From Ferruginibacter sp. (lineage in GTDB: Bacteria; Bacteroidota; Bacteroidia; Chitinophagales; Chitinophagaceae), in contig JAYVPT010000040.1 in the NCBI GenBank assembly GCA_043757165.1, positions 60,786 to 124,785 of the forward strand: a DNA stretch of 64,000 nt. Reading direction: 5' to 3'. The stretch's first letter is position 1, and each line of letters opens with the position of its first letter. Under the pieces are notes generated by a model. The model was not told the DNA's origin. It ran no database searches and was given only the letters and a program-made list of their open reading frames with translations. The position numbers and the translations under genes were made by a program. Shown piece by piece: positions 1-8,941 of the stretch.

Positions 1-83
1 AATGAGGTACCGCTCATTAAACCTATAACTTTTCTTACCCTTTTTTTTGAAATAGTGTACAATTTTTCCAGGTCAGCATTCAT
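1..83 (-). CDS. anmK: Anhydro-N-acetylmuramic acid kinase, N-terminal fragment (runs off the left edge; not in the ORF track)
   Basis: ATG at 83 gives MNADLEKLYTISKKRVRKVIGLMSGTS; IGLMSGTS(xDG) is the AnmK N-terminal phosphate-binding motif. Only 27 codons are visible. Confidence 0.8.
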   Translation of the reverse strand, partial: MNADLEKLYTISKKRVRKVIGLMSGTS

Positions 84-240
84 AACAGTAAATATAGTTG
101 TTGTTCCTGATTTTAATTTTGATTAACTTTTGCAACCAAAAGTTGCGTATTAATGCAACATTAATAAAAAAACACTGCAATATTTTGCATGTTTCAGTAT
201 TTTTTATATCTTGCCAACCAGTTTTACCCCAAGGACTATC

Positions 241-987
241 ATGCTTAAAAAAGAACGCCAGGCTTTTATTCTGCATAATGTAAACTTACACAACCGTGTT
301 TTAAGTAGCGATTTAAGTATAGCCATAAATGTTTCGGAAGATACCATCAGAAGGGATTTGCAGGAATTATCAGAGCATAACAAACTAATAAAAGTACATG
401 GTGGAGCTTTATCCAAATCTTTTCACAGCTCCTTTAATTCATCCAAAGTTTATGCAATAGAGAATAAGAAAAAGATAGCTCAAAAAGCTGCTAATCTTAT
501 AAAAGACGGCATGTTTGTACTCACCACCGGAGGTACAACTATTATTGAGTTAGCTAAAGCATTGCCGGAAAATCTGCATGCAACTTTTATTACCGGAAGC
601 TTGCCTTCTGCCATAGAGTATATGCATCATCCCAATATAGATGTGATAATTATTGGCGATAAGCTGTCGAAAAATTCGCAGATAACAGTAGGTGGAGAAG
701 CTATCGCAAAAATAAAGCAGATAAAAGCTGACATATGTTTTGTAGGCACTAATGCATTGAGCCTGGAACATGGCTTAACTGATAATGACTGGGAAGTTGT
801 ACAGGTTAAAAAAGCCATGATAGAAGCATCGGCAAAAGTGGTATCACTTACCATTTCCGAAAAACTAAATTCAACCCAACCGATACGGATTTGCGAAACA
901 AAAGAAATTGATATTTTAATTACAGAGTTAAATGCCGATGACAAAATATTAAAGCCTTATAAAAAAAGTGGATTAACAATTATCTAA
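241..987 (+). CDS. DeoR/GlpR-family transcriptional regulator
   Basis: HTH with SEDTIRRDL and KVHGGA, then DeoRC sensor domain. Start moved to ATG 241 (MLKKERQ), the typical family N-terminus. Confidence 0.92.
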   Translation: MLKKERQAFILHNVNLHNRVLSSDLSIAINVSEDTIRRDLQELSEHNKLIKVHGGALSKSFHSSFNSSKVYAIENKKKIAQKAANLIKDGMFVLTTGGTTIIELAKALPENLHATFITGSLPSAIEYMHHPNIDVIIIGDKLSKNSQITVGGEAIAKIKQIKADICFVGTNALSLEHGLTDNDWEVVQVKKAMIEASAKVVSLTISEKLNSTQPIRICETKEIDILITELNADDKILKPYKKSGLTII

Positions 988-1017
988 AACAATTTTTTAA
1001 AACCCAAAAAATGCGAC

Positions 1018-4000
1018 ATGAGAAACTTTATTTCAAAAAAACTAATTAAACAGAAATGGCTTTGCCTGTTTCTGCTAACAAATCTGTTTGTCTTTGCAAT
1101 AAAGGCACAGGTAAAAATATCCGGTAAGGTTACCGATAGCAAAGGGGAAGCTGTAGCCGGAGTTTCTGTTTCTGTAAAAAATGATAATGCAGGTACCTCT
1201 ACGAATGCAGATGGATCATATCAGTTTATGGCCAATCTTAAAAAAGGAAAACACATATTGCTATTTTCAGGAGTGGGATTTAAAAGCATGGAGCAAACTA
1301 TTACTGTAAATGATAATGCAGAAATAACTGCCATTGCAACTTTACAAAACGATGCGATGGGAATGGATGAAGTTATTGTAACTGGTACTTCAACAGGTAC
1401 CACCCGCAGGCAATTAGGCAGCTATATCAGTACGGTAAAAGCAGATCAGCTTACCAAAGGTGCTACAGCAAATGTTCTGGCTGCATTACAAGGCAAAACT
1501 GCGGGAGCACAGATAACACAGAATAGTGGAGATCCTTCTGGTGGTATTTCTGTACGGTTACGAGGTATCAGCTCTATTTCCAGTAGCAGCGAACCTTTGT
1601 ATATCGTAGATGGTGTAATTGTAAATAATGCAACTACAAGAGTTACTAATACAAGCGGCAATTATGATGGTCAAAATTTTGTTGGTGCCATCGGGCAAAA
1701 CAGGCTGGCAGATATTAACCCTGCTGATATAGAAAGAATAGAAGTGTTGAACGGTGCTGCGGCAGCGGCAATTTATGGTTCAAGAGCAAATGCAGGCGTT
1801 GTACAAATTTTTACAAAACGTGGTAGCTCAGGAGCACCAGTTGTTAGTTTCTCATCCAGCCTTATGTTTAGTAAACTTAGAAAAAGCGTAGAAGTAAATC
1901 AATCTCCTGTAAAATTTGGTGGCCCTACCGATGGTGTAGGTGCACAAACTCAGGATATATTAACTCCGGCTTTAACTACTACTACAGGCGTAAGACGTTA
2001 TAATTATAATGACTATATTTTTCAAACTGGTGTTGGAACAGATAATAATGTTTCTATTTCCGGCGGAACTGATAAAACAAAATATTATGCTTCAGGTTCT
2101 TATTTTAAAAATGAGGGGATCATAAAAAATACGGATTACAGACGATATAGTTTCAGGGTAAATTTAGATCAGGCTATAGGTAATAAAGTAAATTTTAATA
2201 TTGGATTAAATTACGTAAATAGTTTCAGTAATGAAAAGCCTGACGGTAACTCATTTTTCTCTCCTTTAAATTCAATAAACATTATTGGTAATTTTCACGA
2301 CCTGTTTACAAGAGATGCTTTGGGTAATATTAAAGCCATTGGCGAAAGGGGGCGGGTAAACCCGGTTTCAGTTATTGAAGACATTAAACAAAAAGAGGAA
2401 ACAAACAGGGTAATTGCGGGTATGGGCTTAAAAGTAAGGCCATTTAAAGGGCTAACTTTAGACTATAAATTGGGAATAGATCAATATTCACAAAGAGGAC
2501 AAACTTATATTCCTCCCTTTGCATATAATGTGAGTGATGGATTTTTTGGTGGAGGAGCTGCTCTTGATGCTACACGTAATGGTTATGCAGGAACGGCTTC
2601 TGATAATTTTTTTCAAATAAATAATGAGATAAACGGAACTTACCAGTTTAATATAAACAATGATATAACCTCAACTACACAGGTTGGTTATTCTGTACAA
2701 TATGAAAAAAACAGTTATTCATTATTGCAGGGCCGTGGACTGGCTCCTTTTATTTCAACAGTAAGTGCAGCTAGTACATTGTTACAAGGGGCAGATGAAA
2801 GAAGTGAATTATCGGTATCCGGTTATTATGCACAGCAAAATTTTAAATATAAAAACATTTTATTTTTAACCGGAGCTATAAGAGTGGATGGTTCTTCGGT
2901 TTTTGGTAAAGATCAACGTAACCAAAAATATGCAAAAGCAAGTGCAGGGTATGTAATAAGTGAGCATGGCTTTTGGCAAAATATGGCAATAAGTAAATAC
3001 TGGAATTTTGCAAAGCTAAGAATAGCTTATGGTGAAAGTGGAAATCTTACTGGTATTGGCGCTTATCAACGTTTTAATTCTTATAGCAGTAACTCCTTTA
3101 TTAGCCGTTCTGCTTTAAGTTCCGGCAGCACTTTATCAAATCCTGATGTTAAGCCAGAAAGACAGAAAGAATTGGAGTTTGGTATTGAGTTGGGATTTTT
3201 AGCCAACAGGATAAATTTTACTGCCAATGTTTATAATAAAAAAGTTGATGATTTATTAATCAATCGTTTTATAGCACCAACAAATGGCTTTAGCAGCTAT
3301 TTAAACAATTTTGGAAGTTTAGAAAATAAAGGGTTTGAATTGATGTTGTCAGGAACTCCCGTTCAAACAAAAGATATCAACTGGAGTATTACCGGTATTT
3401 ATAATCATAACAGGAATAAAGCTGTTAAAATCGGACAGGCATTAACTTTATTGAGTACTAACTCGGGAGCTCCGGTTTCAATTATTGAAGGACAACCTAT
3501 CGGCGTTTTCTATGGTGCTTATTTTGCCTTAGATGCCGGTGGTAATCTGGTAAAGAATGCTTTCGGTTTTCCTCAGGGTGAAAGAGGCATTCAGACCGGG
3601 GCATTAGCCTATACCGTAATAAGAGACCCTGCAACAGGATTACCCATAACCACTAATCCATTGGTAAGAACTATTATAGGAGATCCAAATCCTGATTATA
3701 CGGCAACATTAACCAACGAAGTATCTTATAAAAAATTTAGTTTTAGGATACAAATAGATGCTGTAAAAGGCAATGAAGTTTTTAATGCAGACTGGAGAAC
3801 AAGGCAAGGTGTTGGTAATGGTAAAGAAGCTGAAAAAGAACAAACCGGGGTTTATCCACGTGGATATATCAGTAGTTTTTATGGCACTGTTGAACAGTGG
3901 CGTATTGATGATGGTTCCTTTGTTAAACTGCGTGAAATTTCTTTGAGTTATTCTTTAGGTAAAATAAAATGGTTTAAAGATATCACGGCTTCTGTAACCG

Positions 4001-4146
4001 GAAGAAACCTAAAAAGCTGGGATCATTACAAAGGATATGATCCGGAAGTAAATGCAGGCGGCCAAAGTAATATTTTAAGAGGAATAGATTTTGGCGCTAT
4101 TCCTATTCCAAAAACTTTCAGTATTGGGGTTTCTGCTAAATTCTAA
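1018..4146 (+). CDS. SusC/RagA-family TonB-dependent outer-membrane transporter
   Basis: Signal peptide, carboxypeptidase-regulatory-like domain, plug motifs (PLYIVDG; INPADIERIEVLNGAAAAAIYGSRANAGVVQIFTKRG) and C-terminal Phe. Confidence 0.96.
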   Translation: MRNFISKKLIKQKWLCLFLLTNLFVFAIKAQVKISGKVTDSKGEAVAGVSVSVKNDNAGTSTNADGSYQFMANLKKGKHILLFSGVGFKSMEQTITVNDNAEITAIATLQNDAMGMDEVIVTGTSTGTTRRQLGSYISTVKADQLTKGATANVLAALQGKTAGAQITQNSGDPSGGISVRLRGISSISSSSEPLYIVDGVIVNNATTRVTNTSGNYDGQNFVGAIGQNRLADINPADIERIEVLNGAAAAAIYGSRANAGVVQIFTKRGSSGAPVVSFSSSLMFSKLRKSVEVNQSPVKFGGPTDGVGAQTQDILTPALTTTTGVRRYNYNDYIFQTGVGTDNNVSISGGTDKTKYYASGSYFKNEGIIKNTDYRRYSFRVNLDQAIGNKVNFNIGLNYVNSFSNEKPDGNSFFSPLNSINIIGNFHDLFTRDALGNIKAIGERGRVNPVSVIEDIKQKEETNRVIAGMGLKVRPFKGLTLDYKLGIDQYSQRGQTYIPPFAYNVSDGFFGGGAALDATRNGYAGTASDNFFQINNEINGTYQFNINNDITSTTQVGYSVQYEKNSYSLLQGRGLAPFISTVSAASTLLQGADERSELSVSGYYAQQNFKYKNILFLTGAIRVDGSSVFGKDQRNQKYAKASAGYVISEHGFWQNMAISKYWNFAKLRIAYGESGNLTGIGAYQRFNSYSSNSFISRSALSSGSTLSNPDVKPERQKELEFGIELGFLANRINFTANVYNKKVDDLLINRFIAPTNGFSSYLNNFGSLENKGFELMLSGTPVQTKDINWSITGIYNHNRNKAVKIGQALTLLSTNSGAPVSIIEGQPIGVFYGAYFALDAGGNLVKNAFGFPQGERGIQTGALAYTVIRDPATGLPITTNPLVRTIIGDPNPDYTATLTNEVSYKKFSFRIQIDAVKGNEVFNADWRTRQGVGNGKEAEKEQTGVYPRGYISSFYGTVEQWRIDDGSFVKLREISLSYSLGKIKWFKDITASVTGRNLKSWDHYKGYDPEVNAGGQSNILRGIDFGAIPIPKTFSIGVSAKF

Positions 4147-4165
4147 ACCTTTTAAAAAAATAATT

Positions 4166-5467
4166 ATGAAAAATAGAAATAGAAAAATTGTAACAATTGC
4201 AGCATTGCTAGGTGCTACATTTTTACAAATAAGCTGTAAAAAGGATTATACCGATCCGTCAAGAGCTAATGAAGAACAGGCCTTAACTACTCCAAGGGGT
4301 TTAACCGGAGTTGCAGTAGGTTTACAAAGAGTATATACTTTAGGAAGAGGAAGTACTTTGTATAATTTAATTACCATAAATGGATTAACCACCAATGAAC
4401 TTTTTGTAGTTAATGCAGGTAATACTGCTGAGTTACAAATAGGAACCGGAGGAACATCAGTAGATGGGAACAACTCTATGTTAACCACTTACTGGACCAC
4501 TTGTAATAAAGTAATTTATGATGCAGAACTGGTGATTAGTAACTCTAAAAATTTAAGCGATAAAAATTATGCAAGTGGTTTAATTGCGTACGCAAGTATT
4601 TTTAAAGCATTATCTATTGGAGATATGGCACAGTTTTGGGAAAAAGTGCCTGCAGGTATTGGAACTAATGTAACTTTTATTGACAGGGTTGATGGTTTTA
4701 AAAAAGCAATAACAGTTATTGACGATGCATTGGCAGCTGTTGCAGCTAATCCGGTTAGCAGTTCATTTACTACCAGCATACCAGCAGGTATTGATTTGAT
4801 AAATACATTAAATGCTTTAAAAGCAAGGTACTCCTTATATGCAGGGTTATATGCACAAGCTTTGTCTTCAGCTAATTTGGTTATCCTTACTATAAAATCA
4901 ACTTTTAATTTTGATGCACTTTCTTTAAATCCTGTTTTTGAAACAGCTACATCTACAAATAACGTAGTGCAGCCTAAAGATTCTACATTAGGTTTAGTGA
5001 CTGCATTGGCGCCTTCTTTAACGGATGGCAGAGTTCCGTTTTATACTGCTATCAATACCACAATTGCTCCAAGATTTAGAATAAATGGTTTTTGTAATGC
5101 AGCTGCTACAGCTTTCCCGGTGTATCTGCCCGGAGAAATTACTTTGATCAAAGCAGAGTGTTATGCACGTAGTAACGACAGTACTACAAGCAAAATATTT
5201 TTAAATACAGTGATAACTAAAACAGCAGGTGCAGATCCGTTTGGCGTAGGTGCTAATCAGCCAGCAATTGTTTCTGTAGGTTCTTATGCAGCATTGCTGG
5301 ATGAAATATACCGTCAACGTTGTATAGAATTATTTATGAGTGGCCAGAAATTAGAGGATATGAGAAGGTTTAACAGACCAGTTGCCGAACGCAAAAGAAA
5401 TTTAATGCCTTATCCATTGCGTGAAAGGGATAACAACCCTAATACACCGGCTGATCCTCCTTTTTAA
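4166..5467 (+). CDS. SusD/RagB-family lipoprotein
   Basis: Lipobox (QISC), LIKAECYAR and EIYRQRCIELFMSGQKLEDMRRF motifs; lies 19 nt after susC. Start moved to ATG 4166. Confidence 0.92.
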   Translation: MKNRNRKIVTIAALLGATFLQISCKKDYTDPSRANEEQALTTPRGLTGVAVGLQRVYTLGRGSTLYNLITINGLTTNELFVVNAGNTAELQIGTGGTSVDGNNSMLTTYWTTCNKVIYDAELVISNSKNLSDKNYASGLIAYASIFKALSIGDMAQFWEKVPAGIGTNVTFIDRVDGFKKAITVIDDALAAVAANPVSSSFTTSIPAGIDLINTLNALKARYSLYAGLYAQALSSANLVILTIKSTFNFDALSLNPVFETATSTNNVVQPKDSTLGLVTALAPSLTDGRVPFYTAINTTIAPRFRINGFCNAAATAFPVYLPGEITLIKAECYARSNDSTTSKIFLNTVITKTAGADPFGVGANQPAIVSVGSYAALLDEIYRQRCIELFMSGQKLEDMRRFNRPVAERKRNLMPYPLRERDNNPNTPADPPF

Positions 5468-5499
5468 CTTTTTTGTAGCATAGCATGTTCTCATACAGC

Positions 5500-5533
5500 A
5501 ATCCCAATTACAGCAATGTGGTTGGGATTTTTT
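5500..5533. terminator. Intrinsic terminator between convergent susD and queG
   Basis: AATCCCAA...TTGGGATT stem with a GCAA loop, followed by a T-run. Confidence 0.7.
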
Positions 5534-6458
5534 ATGGAGCAATAAATTTAAAATTCCTTTTTATTCCATCAAACTTTGTCCGCTTTAAGGGAGATTGTTT
5601 GAAAATGATTTTAAAAGATTCTTCTGTCAGTTCTTCCCAATCAGTTGTGGTAAAATTTAAAATTTCAGCAATAGGAGTAAAGCTGATTTCATTTGTTGCT
5701 TTGCTAAATCGGTTCCATGGGCAAACATCCTGGCAAACATCGCAACCAAACATCCAGTTATCAAATTTATCTTTCATTGTTTCCGGAATCAATGCATCTT
5801 TTAACTCAATAGTAAAATAAGATATGCATTTACTGCCATCAATTACTTTATCAGGCAAAATAGCTTCGGTAGGGCATTCATCAATACATTTTGTGCAGGT
5901 GCCACAATAATCTTTAGTAACAGCATTATCATACTCCAATTCCAAATCAATAATTAGTGTGGCAATAAAAAAAAATGAACCTGATTGTTTATTAATCATG
6001 TTCCCATTTTTACCAATCCACCCAAGGCCGCTTTTTTGTGCCCATGCTCTTTCCAGCACAGGTGCACTATCCACAAAGCCCCTTCCGTTAACTTCACCAA
6101 TATTTTCTTTTATGTATTTAAGCAGCAGTTTTAATTTACTTCTTATCACTTCATGATAATCATTTCCATAAGCATATTTTGAAATTTTTGGGGCATTGAT
6201 ATTTTGTTGTTGTGATGGATAATAATTGAGCAACAAAGTAATTACAGATTTTGCACCGGGTACTAATTTTGATGGATCAATCCGTAACTCAAAATGATTT
6301 TCCATGTATTGCATAGAGCCGTTATAGCCTTTGTTCAGCCAGCTTTCCAATCTGTGGGCATCTTCATCTAGTCTAACAGCTTTGGCAATACCACAATAAT
6401 CAAAACCCAATTGTTGAATATAATGTTTTATTAGTTGTGTATGGTTCTCTTTATGCAT
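5532..6458 (-). CDS. queG: Epoxyqueuosine reductase
   Basis: [37 protein letters not shown] and [13 protein letters not shown] Fe-S motifs. Confidence 0.95.
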
Positions 6459-7789: not shown

Positions 7790-8941
7790 CTATCTGGTAG
7801 TTAATGCTTCGTCAACCAGCTTTTTCAATTCTTTATAGCGTTCATTTCTGCCTTTATTCTTAAGGTTAAAAGTCATTAAAAAACCGGCATACTTATTTTT
7901 ATTATCCACCCAGGGAAAACTGCCGAATAATCCAGGGCTGCTAACAGCGTTTGATCTTTCAGAGTCTGGAATTCCTCCCCTTTCGGGGGAGGTTAAGAGG
8001 GGGCTATCCATCACCCACTCTCCAAAACCATAACCCCAATTACCTGCTTCTGCCGGTGATGAAATTATAACAGCATCTTTAGTCACACGGTTTTTCTGCA
8101 TTTCAATTACTGATGCCTTACTTAAAATTTGTTTGCCATTAAATTCGCCTTCATGTAAGACCATTTGTAAAAAATTAAGGTAATCTTCTGCGGTGCTCCA
8201 TGCGCCACCTGCTGGTAATGCCACGTTACCTTTTCCAAAATCGCTGTTTTTCATGTTACACGGCCGGGCAATACGTTCTGCAAATAATGTTTCAAAATTT
8301 TTACCACTTATTTTTTCAATAACAGCGCCTGCAATTTGTAAGCTTGTATTACTGTAGTGAAAGGTTTTACCAGGCTCTCCTTCCATGGGTTGTTTGGCAA
8401 TATCATCCATCGCTTCGTCCATGCTTTTCATATCCTTCATGGCATTCAGGCTTTCTTTTAAGCTGCCGGATTTTATGCCTGTTAAGTGACTAAGACATTG
8501 CCATATTTTAATATTGCCTTTCCCATTGGCTGACATTACGGGTAAAAATTTACCCACTGTATCATCTAAACTTAATTTGCCTTCATCTACAAAAGTCATT
8601 ACCATTGCCGCACTCAACCATTTGCTGCAACTGGCAATTCTTTCTCTGGTGGAAATGGTAAAATCCTGCATCATTTCATCTGCATCTTTACCCTGTCTTT
8701 TTGCAATAAATTTTCCAATTCTTTTTTGTCTGCCTGTCAATTCGTTTTCAGCTTTGCTGTATATGAGTTTACCATCTTTATAAATTACTAAGACAGCCCT
8801 GCCGCCAATCTCTTTTAAATTGTTCGAAAGCCAGTCATTTACCTTATTAAAATTATATTGAGAATAACCAGCCTGAAATAACAGCAGAAAACTTATACAG
8901 AGGCTGCTTATGCGGCAGATTGATTGCATCTTATATGACAT
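7790..8941 (-). CDS. Serine hydrolase, beta-lactamase class C/AmpC family
   Basis: SxxK (ASCSKW), YxN (YSN), LxHxxG motif and a signal peptide. Confidence 0.9.
   Translation of the reverse strand: MSYKMQSICRISSLCISFLLLFQAGYSQYNFNKVNDWLSNNLKEIGGRAVLVIYKDGKLIYSKAENELTGRQKRIGKFIAKRQGKDADEMMQDFTISTRERIASCSKWLSAAMVMTFVDEGKLSLDDTVGKFLPVMSANGKGNIKIWQCLSHLTGIKSGSLKESLNAMKDMKSMDEAMDDIAKQPMEGEPGKTFHYSNTSLQIAGAVIEKISGKNFETLFAERIARPCNMKNSDFGKGNVALPAGGAWSTAEDYLNFLQMVLHEGEFNGKQILSKASVIEMQKNRVTKDAVIISSPAEAGNWGYGFGEWVMDSPLLTSPERGGIPDSERSNAVSSPGLFGSFPWVDNKNKYAGFLMTFNLKNKGRNERYKELKKLVDEALTTR

What the first reader, a model, noticed from the sequence alone, without database searches (positions are those of the whole stretch)
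1..5467. anmK divergent from DeoR-SusC-SusD: candidate peptidoglycan-fragment utilisation locus
Seen: the minus strand at 1-83, which the ORF track misses, encodes MN...KVIGLMSGTS. It shares a 157-bp intergenic region with a DeoR regulator followed directly by susC and susD, and no CAZyme follows susD. Known: AnmK phosphorylates anhydro-MurNAc in cell-wall recycling, DeoR regulators usually sense sugar phosphates, and SusCD pairs import oligomeric substrates. Inference: this SusCD may import muropeptide or anhMurNAc-containing fragments from other cells, under DeoR control, i.e. a utilisation locus for bacterial cell wall rather than plant glycan.
Basis: partly seen in the sequence, partly recalled or inferred. 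Interest (0 to 1): 0.62.

Follow-up and report, generated by a model that had tools for sequence, protein, structure and literature searches.

The report
Cell-wall-fragment importer beside anmK
A small outer-membrane import system (SusC/SusD) with its own DeoR repressor sits back-to-back with the cell-wall-sugar kinase gene anmK, and relatives in at least five families keep it beside cell-wall-sugar genes, so it most likely takes up fragments of bacterial cell wall, a substrate not yet shown for this kind of importer.

Summary
Window 1-83 (minus strand) is the start of a full-length, 400-aa AnmK. It is separated by 157 bp from a deoR-susC-susD operon that ends in a terminator-like hairpin and is followed by no enzyme gene.

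The genes to the left of the window add nothing: an ABC-2 permease, a toxin-antitoxin pair and folK, but no murQ, nagZ or amidase.

- Orthologous SusCD pairs lie next to anmK and/or murQ in at least nine different gene orders. Examples are SSS-murQ-anmK-deoR-susC-susD, susC-susD-anmK-murQ, susC-susD-murQ and anmK-susC-susD.
- More distant homologues sit in operons with NamZ, GHL10, GH20 and murein-peptide enzymes.
- A phased TGC-N7-TGC operator precedes deoR in 40 of 43 loci, usually as two copies. In Chitinophaga it also precedes the SSS-murQ-anmK operon.
- MurQ is present in 21 of 22 genomes that have this SusD, against 69 of 99 that lack it (p = 0.0075).

Caveats: only half of the orthologous loci keep anmK nearby. 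In this genome murK-murQ and the symporter lie elsewhere and have no operator. There is no expression or binding evidence.

Verdict: probably (about 0.68) a DeoR-repressed outer-membrane importer for peptidoglycan-derived, (anhydro)MurNAc-bearing fragments. It is a minimal, enzyme-free form of a widespread but experimentally uncharacterised type of locus.

The parts
1..83 (-). [quoted passage not shown] The full 400-aa gene runs left of the window to C40:59669 (L003 13667-14869).
   Evidence: NF007149 649.8 bits > 616 cut-off; PF03702; PDB AnmK 3cqy, 205 bits. It is the only anmK homologue in the genome.
84..240 (.). 157-bp divergent control region shared by anmK and deoR-susC-susD.
   Evidence: No Rfam family matches it.
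140..160 (+). Operator O2, AAGTTGCGTATTAATGCAACA (TGC at 144-146 and 154-156). It is also part of an inverted repeat, GTTGC-N8-GCAAC.
   Evidence: TGC-N7-TGC motif found upstream of deoR in 40 of 43 orthologous loci, typically at about -95. Background is 0.059 per 200 nt. PWM score 15.3 bits; hairpin listed.
172..192 (+). Operator O1, ACACTGCAATATTTTGCATGT (TGC at 176-178 and 186-188), 32 nt from O2.
   Evidence: Conserved at about -63 from the deoR start in most orthologous loci. PWM score 14.8 bits.
241..987 (+). deoR-family repressor (248 aa), first gene of the operon.
   Evidence: PF08220 and PF00455. Below every NCBIfam equivalog cut-off. Orthologues head the same SusCD pair in 37 of 60 loci. 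A paralogue with 66% identity lies at C57.
1018..4146 (+). SusC/RagA-type TonB-dependent outer-membrane transporter (1042 aa).
   Evidence: TIGR04056 614.6 bits; CarboxypepD_reg and Plug domains. Orthologues are 60-94% identical, while the next paralogue in the genome is only 27%.
4166..5467 (+). Small SusD-like surface lipoprotein (433 aa), the lid or binding partner of SusC.
   Evidence: Lipoprotein signal ending in Cys24. PF07980 E = 1.6e-7. AlphaFold model pLDDT 84, pTM 0.85; Foldseek finds the SusD fold at TM 0.55-0.68.
5500..5529 (+). Terminator-like hairpin with a T run that closes the operon.
   Evidence: 13 pairs. The next gene, queG, is convergent.

Best explanation
The locus is a minimal, enzyme-free utilisation locus for peptidoglycan-derived amino sugars.

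Proposed regulation: a DeoR-family repressor binds two pairs of 10-bp-phased TGC repeats (O1 and O2) in the 157-bp region between anmK and deoR. This holds down its own operon, deoR-susC-susD, and probably anmK as well. A sugar phosphate of the pathway, most plausibly MurNAc-6-phosphate, the product of AnmK, relieves repression.

Proposed pathway:
1. SusC/SusD then carry (anhydro)MurNAc-bearing fragments across the outer membrane. These could be free anhMurNAc or MurNAc, or GlcNAc-anhMurNAc with or without peptide.
2. The MurNAc moiety enters the cytoplasm through a sodium:solute symporter. This genome has no AmpG.
3. AnmK converts anhMurNAc to MurNAc-6-P, and MurK does the same for MurNAc.
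4. MurQ converts MurNAc-6-P to GlcNAc-6-P plus D-lactate.

Shown here: the gene identities, the operon structure, the operator motif and its conservation, and the recurrent linkage of this SusCD clade to anmK, murQ, NamZ and related genes.

Inferred: the substrate, the inducer, repression rather than activation, control of anmK in this genome, and the inner-membrane step.
For: 1. Gene order in Chitinophagaceae. Of 60 orthologous SusCD loci with enough flank, 30 have anmK within 10 kb and 7 also have murQ. The arrangements differ, so adjacency survived repeated rearrangement:
- anmK(-)|deoR susC susD (this locus)
- anmK(-)|susC susD with the operators kept (L006, L019, L021)
- SSS murQ anmK deoR susC susD, all co-directional (Chitinophaga L074-76, L078)
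- murQ anmK(-)|deoR susC susD (L049, L051)
- deoR(-)|susC susD anmK (L031), and deoR susC susD anmK (G052)
- susC susD anmK murQ (G111)
- susC susD murQ (G003)

2. Other families.
- f6: anmK susC(60-62%) susD deoR, beside NagB-PIG-L, GHL10 and HGSNAT genes, in 4 of 4 genomes.
- f5, G203: GH20 murQ susC susD MTase GHL10 SSS epimerase NlpC/P60-SH3.
- f5, G497, G329 and G333: susC susD NamZ.
- f31, G322: susC susD GH18 beta-lactamase-fold SSS | anmK, HGSNAT, NagB-PIG-L.

3. Regulon. TGC-N7-TGC lies upstream of deoR in 40 of 43 loci, usually twice and 32 nt apart, against 0.059 expected per 200 nt. The same motif scores 16-21 bits about 40 nt upstream of the SSS-murQ-anmK operon in four Chitinophaga genomes, and 23-27 bits upstream of susC-susD-murQ in G003.

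4. Phyletic pattern. MurQ is present in 21 of 22 genomes with this SusD and in 69 of 99 without it (Fisher one-sided p = 0.0075).

5. Pathway in this genome. There is a single anmK. A murK-murQ operon is present, whose kinase matches the T. forsythia MurK and K1058 structures at E = 1e-63. There is an SSS orthologue (62% identical) and no AmpG.

6. No rival catabolic theme appears next to this SusCD clade in any of the loci examined.
Against: - Half of the orthologous loci lack anmK within 10 kb, and 20 of 60 lack both anmK and deoR.
- The backbone ABC2-orf163-[anmK]-[deoR]-[susCD]-queG is filled in variably. The closest same-genus genome sampled (G056) and G043 have anmK next to queG with no SusCD. 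The parts are therefore separable, and some of the adjacency is inherited synteny.
- Co-occurrence of this AnmK type with the SusD is weak (6 of 22 against 12 of 99, p = 0.076).
- In this genome no convincing operator lies upstream of murK-murQ, the SSS gene, GH9-CE4, NagB-PIG-L or GHL10.
- In family f6 strong operators precede the second SusC type, and only a degenerate one precedes anmK-susC.
- The SusD model gives no ligand-specific match.
Confidence: 0.68

Rival explanations
1. The adjacency is historical. anmK is a housekeeping cell-wall-recycling gene that happens to lie beside a DeoR-regulated SusCD pair whose substrate is unrelated to peptidoglycan.
For: - The block ABC2-orf163-anmK-deoR-susCD-queG-...-clpB is syntenic as a whole in near relatives, including clearly unrelated genes.
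- anmK alone or susCD alone persists in many genomes.
- The phyletic correlation with this AnmK type is weak (p = 0.076).
- This genome's murKQ and SSS genes have no operator.
Against: - At least nine different architectures keep anmK and/or murQ fused to this SusCD clade. They include co-directional operons with gaps of 59-145 nt and occur in several families.
- The operator is shared with SSS-murQ-anmK.
- NamZ, GHL10, GH20 and murein-peptide enzymes sit in operons with the more distant homologues.
- MurQ is enriched in genomes that carry this SusD (p = 0.0075).
Confidence: 0.15
2. The SusCD imports a different amino-sugar substrate, such as chito-oligosaccharides or GlcNAc glycans, or another 1,6-anhydro sugar. 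On this reading the link to anmK reflects a general amino-sugar regulon, or an AnmK-family kinase with a different specificity.
For: - The kinase scores almost as well against levoglucosan kinase (4zxz, 176 bits, aligned to residue 397) as against AnmK (3cqy, 205 bits).
- Neighbours in some families are general amino-sugar genes: NagB-PIG-L, HGSNAT, GH18, GH20 and GH9-CE4.
Against: - MurQ acts on MurNAc-6-P, and it is fused to the SusCD and/or anmK in Chitinophaga, L049, L051, G111, G003 and G203.
- NamZ, a peptidoglycan-specific exo-muramidase family, follows susD in three genomes.
- The kinase passes the AnmK equivalog cut-off.
Confidence: 0.1
3. The machinery is the same but the purpose differs. 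The SusCD recaptures the cell's own peptidoglycan turnover products that leak out, which the absence of AmpG might favour, rather than foraging on the walls of other bacteria.
For: - This genome has no AmpG-type permease.
- The locus has no surface or secreted lytic enzyme.
- A high-affinity TonB-dependent system suits dilute ligands (established knowledge of TonB-dependent transporters).
Against: - Own turnover products arise in the periplasm, already inside the outer membrane, so an outer-membrane importer is needed only after loss to the medium.
- More distant homologues are combined with NamZ, GHL10 and GH20 enzymes typical of degrading external glycan.

The two purposes are not mutually exclusive.
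Confidence: 0.2

Closest known systems
Tannerella forsythia MurNAc and muropeptide salvage cluster (ampG ... murT-murK-murQ, regulated by GppX; PMC5388701, PMC7670621, PMC10465942)
   Same: Both are Bacteroidota systems for using exogenous MurNAc or peptidoglycan fragments. This genome has a murK-murQ operon whose kinase matches the solved T. forsythia MurK and K1058 structures (E = 1e-63). MurQ is the common downstream enzyme.
   Different: - The T. forsythia operon, as described, holds no SusC/SusD and no outer-membrane step.
- T. forsythia is reported to have no AnmK orthologue (PMC7670621). It uses AmpG, which is absent here.
- Its regulator is a hybrid two-component system, not a DeoR protein.
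- Here the outer-membrane pair, its regulator and anmK form the unit, and murKQ lies elsewhere.
Canonical polysaccharide utilisation loci (the Sus paradigm of Bacteroides thetaiotaomicron)
   Same: A tandem susC-susD pair with an adjacent dedicated regulator, transcribed as one operon. The SusD fold is confirmed.
   Different: - There is no glycoside hydrolase, lyase or surface glycan-binding protein in the locus.
- SusD is small (433 aa).
- The regulator is a cytoplasmic DeoR-type repressor, not SusR, a hybrid two-component system or an ECF sigma/anti-sigma pair.
- The predicted substrate is bacterial cell wall, not plant or host glycan.
NanO/NanU sialic-acid SusCD-like transporter of Bacteroides fragilis and T. 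forsythia (NanU structure 4l7t)
   Same: This is a working analogy only: a SusCD-type pair that serves a small acidic N-acetylated amino sugar and feeds a cytoplasmic catabolic pathway. NanU is among the fold matches (rank 39, TM 0.62).
   Different: Sequence identity is only 10%, and NanU is no closer than dozens of other SusD structures. The substrate here is unproven and may be a disaccharide or a muropeptide.
E. coli MurR / murQP and AnmK recycling (Jaeger 2005 and Uehara 2006, as cited in PMC13046382)
   Same: The same cytoplasmic chemistry: anhMurNAc to MurNAc-6-P (AnmK), then to GlcNAc-6-P (MurQ). Control by a sugar-phosphate-sensing repressor is the model for the inducer proposed here.
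   Different: The E. coli regulator is RpiR-type (own knowledge). Uptake there is by the PTS transporter MurP and by AmpG. No dedicated outer-membrane transporter is known.

Membership tests
[quoted passage not shown] | Full-length match to a curated AnmK equivalog model above its cut-off | tested here: met
   NF007149: 649.8 bits against a cut-off of 616, residues 1-399 of 400. PF03702 E = 8e-92.
[quoted passage not shown] | Specificity for anhMurNAc rather than other 1,6-anhydro sugars (levoglucosan kinase belongs to the same superfamily) | tested here: inconclusive
   PDB matches: AnmK 3cqy 205 bits against levoglucosan kinase 4zxz 176 bits. Operon partnership with murQ in several genomes argues for a MurNAc-6-P product.
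SusC/RagA TonB-dependent transporter | Match to TIGR04056 with an N-terminal CarboxypepD_reg domain, a plug and the barrel | tested here: met
   614.6 bits against a cut-off of 368. PF13715 and PF07715 also match. The SusC signature TIGR04057 scores 42.4 bits, just below its 46.2 cut-off.
SusD/RagB lipoprotein | Lipoprotein signal, gene directly downstream of susC, and the helical TPR-based SusD fold | tested here: met
   Signal ends in ...ISC24 and the gene starts 19 nt after susC. Model pLDDT is 84. The top 50 Foldseek matches are almost all SusD-type lids (SusD, RagB, SGBP-A), TM 0.55-0.68, probability 1.00. Sequence models are weak: PF07980 31.7 bits and no NCBIfam match.
DeoR-family transcription regulator | N-terminal HTH_DeoR domain plus a C-terminal DeoRC sensor domain | tested here: met
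   PF08220 E = 5e-13 and PF00455 E = 2e-41. It is below the cut-off of every named equivalog (GlpR, AgaR, SrlR, UlaR, DeoR), so the effector cannot be read from homology.
Polysaccharide utilisation locus (PUL) in the strict sense | A susC-susD pair together with at least one co-localised carbohydrate-active enzyme | tested here: not met
   No CAZyme lies within the operon or its flanks. queG is convergent on the right. An ABC-2 permease, a RES/Xre pair, folK and a deoxynucleoside kinase lie on the left. More distant homologous loci do carry NamZ, GHL10, GH20 or GH18.
Peptidoglycan-fragment utilisation locus (proposed class) | The SusCD clade is linked across lineages to enzymes specific for MurNAc or peptidoglycan | tested here: met
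   anmK and/or murQ are linked in at least nine architectures. NamZ, GHL10, GH20 and epimerase/YkfC-like genes accompany the more distant homologues.
Peptidoglycan-fragment utilisation locus (proposed class) | Induction by, binding of and transport of peptidoglycan fragments | not testable with these tools
Binding and transport need bench work.
T. forsythia murTKQ-type MurNAc pathway | A MurK-type kinase adjacent to MurQ | tested here: met
   C58 carries a BcrAD_BadFG kinase directly upstream of murQ. The kinase matches 8ow9, 8oqw and 8oqk at E about 1e-63. MurQ scores 313.7 bits on TIGR00274, above the cut-off. This operon is not part of the locus under study.

The most novel reading that the evidence does not exclude
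This SusCD pair belongs to a family of outer-membrane importers, spread across Bacteroidota, that is dedicated to peptidoglycan turnover products. That would supply the missing outer-membrane step of MurNAc and anhMurNAc scavenging. In Chitinophagaceae and at least one neighbouring family it is run by a DeoR-type repressor that reads 10-bp-phased TGC repeats and senses a MurNAc-pathway sugar phosphate. A second SusCD type (SusC2/SusD2 with DUF4397 proteins) under the same kind of operator would then take up another part of the cell wall, for example stem peptides or denuded glycan.
Probability: 0.55. Interest if true: 0.75.

Novelty: new variant of a known kind. Interest (0 to 1): 0.64.

Why it matters
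Peptidoglycan is among the most abundant bacterial polymers. Its fragments also act as signals to hosts and as nutrients for auxotrophs such as Tannerella forsythia.

How such fragments cross the outer membrane of Bacteroidota is not described in the papers I could search. The T. forsythia model names only inner-membrane transporters.

A defined three-gene unit (deoR-susC-susD) with a predicted operator, orthologues in cultivable soil genera (Chitinophaga, Niastella, Segetibacter, Flaviaesturariibacter), and a clear prediction for ligand and inducer would make that question directly testable. It would also extend SusCD substrates from dietary and host glycans to bacterial necromass. That bears on carbon and nitrogen turnover in soil and freshwater, and on cross-feeding in microbiomes.

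Tried and rejected
1. Left flank of the window. I looked for murQ, nagZ, amidases or a permease and found none. anmK is monocistronic and convergent with an unknown 163-aa ORF and an ABC-2 permease.

2. Operator scan of this genome with a 21-nt PWM. A single site is too weak to be specific: 341 hits of at least 12 bits, 47 of them intergenic. The only intergenic place where two sites of at least 12 bits were seen together is this locus; the paralogous deoR2 has one such site plus a weaker TGC-N7-TGC seen by eye. Nothing convincing lies upstream of murK-murQ, SSS, GH9-CE4, GHL10 or NagB-PIG-L.

3. Phyletic profile of the 400-aa AnmK type against the SusD: weak (p = 0.076). Any AnmK against the SusD: not significant (p = 0.16).

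4. Fold search of the SusD model for a ligand-specific neighbour. It returned only the generic SusD fold at 17% identity or less.

5. Rfam search of window 1-6000 for a riboswitch or leader: no hits.

6. The sigma-70 promoter scan is uninformative for Bacteroidota and no better than shuffled sequence.

8. Literature. No paper in the searchable library links SusC/SusD or any TonB-dependent transporter to MurNAc, anhMurNAc or NamZ. The paper that first described MurT (PMC5075041) is not held, so I could not check whether the SSS symporter found here belongs to the MurT family.

9. Proximity of the paralogous DeoR2-SusC2D2 locus to murK-murQ, 5-25 kb apart in eight genomes (four inspected). It looks like conserved macro-synteny with unrelated genes such as ychF in between, so I did not count it as evidence.


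Full report
**What is in the window**

The minus strand of bases 1-83 reads MNADLEKLYTISKKRVRKVIGLMSGTS. The window is C40:60786-124785 of a 4.07-Mb, 75-contig genome, so the sequence to the left could be read (locus L003).

- The ORF continues to 400 aa. It matches the NCBIfam AnmK equivalog NF007149 over its whole length, 649.8 bits against a cut-off of 616, and Pfam PF03702. It is the only anmK homologue in the genome.
- On the plus strand, a DeoR-family regulator (ATG 241 to 987; HTH_DeoR plus DeoRC) is followed after 30 nt by a SusC/RagA transporter (1018-4146; TIGR04056, 614.6 bits).
- After a further 19 nt comes a 433-aa lipoprotein (4166-5467) with only a weak SusD signature (PF07980, E = 1.6e-7).
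- An AlphaFold model built on 19 orthologues (pLDDT 84, pTM 0.85) matches dozens of solved SusD-type lids at TM 0.55-0.68 and 17% identity or less. The fold is SusD, but no characterised relative is close.
- A 13-pair hairpin with a T run at 5500-5529 and the convergent queG gene close the operon.

**The immediate flanks do not help**

Left of anmK lie, in order:
- a convergent 163-aa ORF with no family match
- an ABC-2 permease
- a RES/Xre toxin-antitoxin pair
- folK
- a deoxynucleoside kinase
- an EntS-like MFS exporter
- four tandem DUF418 paralogues

There is no murQ, nagZ, amidase or muropeptide permease. On local evidence alone the link between anmK and the SusCD pair could be an accident.

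**Orthologous loci in the family**

A scan of one genome per species returned 80 loci that encode a SusD 53-94% identical to this one. All are from Chitinophagaceae: Ferruginibacter, Niastella, Chitinophaga, Segetibacter, Flavisolibacter, Ginsengibacter and many MAGs.

I mapped the window's proteins onto these loci and clustered all neighbouring ORFs. Of the 60 loci with at least 3 kb upstream of susC:
- 30 have anmK within 10 kb, and 7 of these also have a 269-aa gene that is MurQ (TIGR00274, 317.6 bits against a cut-off of 302)
- 10 have deoR only
- 20 have neither

Part of this is inherited synteny. In near relatives the whole block ABC2-orf163-anmK-deoR-susC-susD-queG-...-clpB is conserved. 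In some genomes the SusCD cassette is simply missing between anmK and queG, and in others anmK and deoR are missing.

The link nevertheless survives rearrangement. Chitinophaga species have a sodium:solute symporter (SSS), murQ, anmK, deoR, susC and susD all on one strand, with quite different flanks. L049 and L051 have murQ-anmK divergent from deoR-susC-susD. L031 and G052 have anmK behind susD. G111 has susC-susD-anmK-murQ with gaps of 59 and 97 nt. G003 has susC-susD-murQ.

**Beyond the family**

I sampled 401 genomes of the phylum.
- In family f6 (same class, different family), all four genomes with an orthologue (SusC 60-63% identical, SusD 55-60%) have it beside anmK. Three show anmK-susC-susD co-directional with gaps of roughly 25-145 nt, followed by deoR. 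The neighbours are a NagB-PIG-L fusion protein, a GHL10 hydrolase-like gene and an HGSNAT-type membrane acetyltransferase.
- More distant homologues (33-45% identity, still the best match in their genomes) sit in richer loci. G203 has GH20-murQ-susC-susD-methyltransferase-GHL10-SSS-MR/MLE epimerase-NlpC/P60+SH3. Three genomes have susC-susD followed by NamZ, the exo-beta-N-acetylmuramidase family (PF07075 plus PF20732).
- G322 (f31) has susC-susD-GH18-beta-lactamase-fold-SSS divergent from anmK, next to HGSNAT and NagB-PIG-L genes.

From established knowledge: MurQ acts on MurNAc-6-phosphate, NamZ on MurNAc-terminated peptidoglycan fragments, the epimerase/YkfC-type pair on murein peptides, and the GHL10 family includes the E. 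coli denuded-glycan hydrolase DigH.

No competing catabolic theme recurs beside this SusCD clade. The other recurrent neighbours are an ECF sigma cassette, an unknown lipoprotein and a SAM methyltransferase. That methyltransferase also follows susD in G203 (35-42% identity).

**Regulation**

Aligning the regions upstream of deoR showed a motif, TGC-N7-TGC (consensus AATTTGCATTTTTTTGCAGGT), in 40 of 43 loci. It usually occurs twice, near -63 and -95, that is 32 nt apart. The genome-wide frequency gives 0.059 expected per 200 nt.

In the window the two sites are at 172-192 and 140-160. They lie between the two start codons, 49-101 nt from deoR and 57-109 nt from anmK.

- A weight matrix built from these sites finds the motif at 16-21 bits about 40 nt upstream of the SSS-murQ-anmK operon in four Chitinophaga genomes. 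There, all but one of the hits of at least 16 bits in each 21-kb locus fall in the two promoter regions; the exception lies inside anmK in L076.
- It finds 23-27 bits upstream of susC-susD-murQ in G003.
- In loci that have lost deoR, the motif persists between anmK and susC.

This places anmK, murQ and the symporter in the same regulon as the SusCD pair in at least some genera.

There are limits. The matrix is too weak for single-site prediction genome-wide. In this genome nothing convincing lies upstream of murK-murQ, the SSS gene or other amino-sugar genes. In family f6 the strong sites precede a second SusC type, and only a degenerate version precedes anmK.

Repression (rather than activation) and the inducer are inferences from what is known of DeoR-family regulators and of E. 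coli MurR.

**The pathway in this genome**

- murQ lies at C58, directly behind a BcrAD_BadFG kinase that matches the solved T. forsythia MurK and K1058 structures (E about 1e-63).
- The orthologue of the Chitinophaga symporter lies at C63 (62% identical).
- A GH9-CE4 protein, a NamZ-like gene, GHL10, GH20, NagB-PIG-L and an epimerase are scattered over other contigs.
- No AmpG-type permease is detectable, although the same search rings in the Bacteroides thetaiotaomicron control genome.

The cytoplasmic route anhMurNAc to MurNAc-6-P to GlcNAc-6-P therefore exists. Entry through the inner membrane is probably as a monosaccharide.

Across 121 genera of the family, MurQ is present in 21 of 22 genomes with this SusD against 69 of 99 without it (p = 0.0075). 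Correlation with the particular 400-aa AnmK type is weak (p = 0.076). Most of the family carries a different AnmK of about 370 aa that is only about 30% identical.

**Comparison with what is known**

The closest described system is the Tannerella forsythia MurNAc and muropeptide salvage cluster. That operon, as published, has no SusCD and no outer-membrane step. T. forsythia is reported to have no AnmK orthologue, and the cluster is regulated by a hybrid two-component system.

I found no paper that links a SusCD pair or any TonB-dependent transporter to MurNAc, anhMurNAc or NamZ.

Formally the locus fails the strict definition of a PUL because it has no CAZyme. It works like one stripped down to regulator plus transporter. 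As a working analogy only, it resembles the NanO/NanU sialic-acid pair.

Earlier notes of this scan describe similar peptidoglycan-SusCD loci in other Bacteroidota, some with DeoR regulators. I read them after reaching my conclusion and treat them as agreement, not as evidence.

**Verdict**

The most likely reading (about 0.68) is a DeoR-repressed outer-membrane importer for peptidoglycan-derived, (anhydro)MurNAc-bearing fragments that is functionally coupled to AnmK.

Still open: the exact ligand (monosaccharide, disaccharide or muropeptide), the inducer, whether anmK itself is regulated in this genome, and whether the system forages on other cells or recaptures the cell's own fragments.

Noticed in passing
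G000 contig C57:18362-27085 (L087 6363-15086): A paralogous locus: a beta-lactamase-fold gene (D-aminopeptidase/AmpH-like), deoR2 (66% identical to the window's DeoR), susC2, susD2 (545 aa) and two DUF4397 proteins. TGC-N7-TGC sites lie upstream of deoR2. In family f6 one deoR sits between the SusC1D1 and SusC2D2 types, and repeated operator clusters precede two successive SusC2-type genes. The two systems probably belong to one regulon.
   Followed up: partly
Family-wide; window 1-83 and L003 13667-14869: Chitinophagaceae carry two AnmK types. The 400-aa type, present here, is found in 18 of 121 sampled genera and is also common in other Bacteroidota families. A type of about 370 aa, only about 30% identical, is found in most genera. 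One genome has both. Only the 400-aa type was seen next to the SusCD.
   Followed up: partly
L020, L022, L024, L028, L043, L053 (directly after susD) and L167 9038-9763: A SAM-dependent methyltransferase of about 230 aa follows susD in six Chitinophagaceae loci. Its homologue (35-42% identical) follows susD inside the large peptidoglycan locus of G203. Its role is unknown, and it is absent from this genome.
   Followed up: partly
L003 11067-12016 (about 2.8-3.7 kb left of the window start): A RES-domain toxin with an Xre-type antitoxin (NF049844 and NF049845, both above cut-off) sits between folK and the ABC-2 permease. It is present in only some of the syntenic relatives (clusters c15 and c18).
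   Followed up: no
L003 1701-7883 (left of the window): Four tandem paralogues of about 500-515 aa. The two scanned carry DUF418 (YeiB-like) and HGSNAT-like acyltransferase signatures. This is an unusual fourfold array.
   Followed up: no
Contigs C57 and C58, and G084, G115, G047, G095: deoR2-susC2-susD2 and murK-murQ lie 5-25 kb apart within a conserved block in several genera, with ychF and other unrelated genes in between. In this assembly the block appears to be split across contigs C57 and C58.
   Followed up: partly
window 7790-8941 (-): A beta-lactamase-fold serine hydrolase (PF00144; weak matches to PBP4B and AmpH) lies 2.3 kb downstream of susD on the other strand. It is syntenic in some relatives and is not part of the operon.
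   Followed up: no
L151 (G090) and L155 (G018): At the same chromosomal position (anmK-deoR-[susCD]-queG) some genera carry a SusCD pair only 39-44% identical to this one, while DeoR (70%) and AnmK (64%) stay close. This points to replacement, or fast divergence, of the transporter at a fixed site.
   Followed up: no
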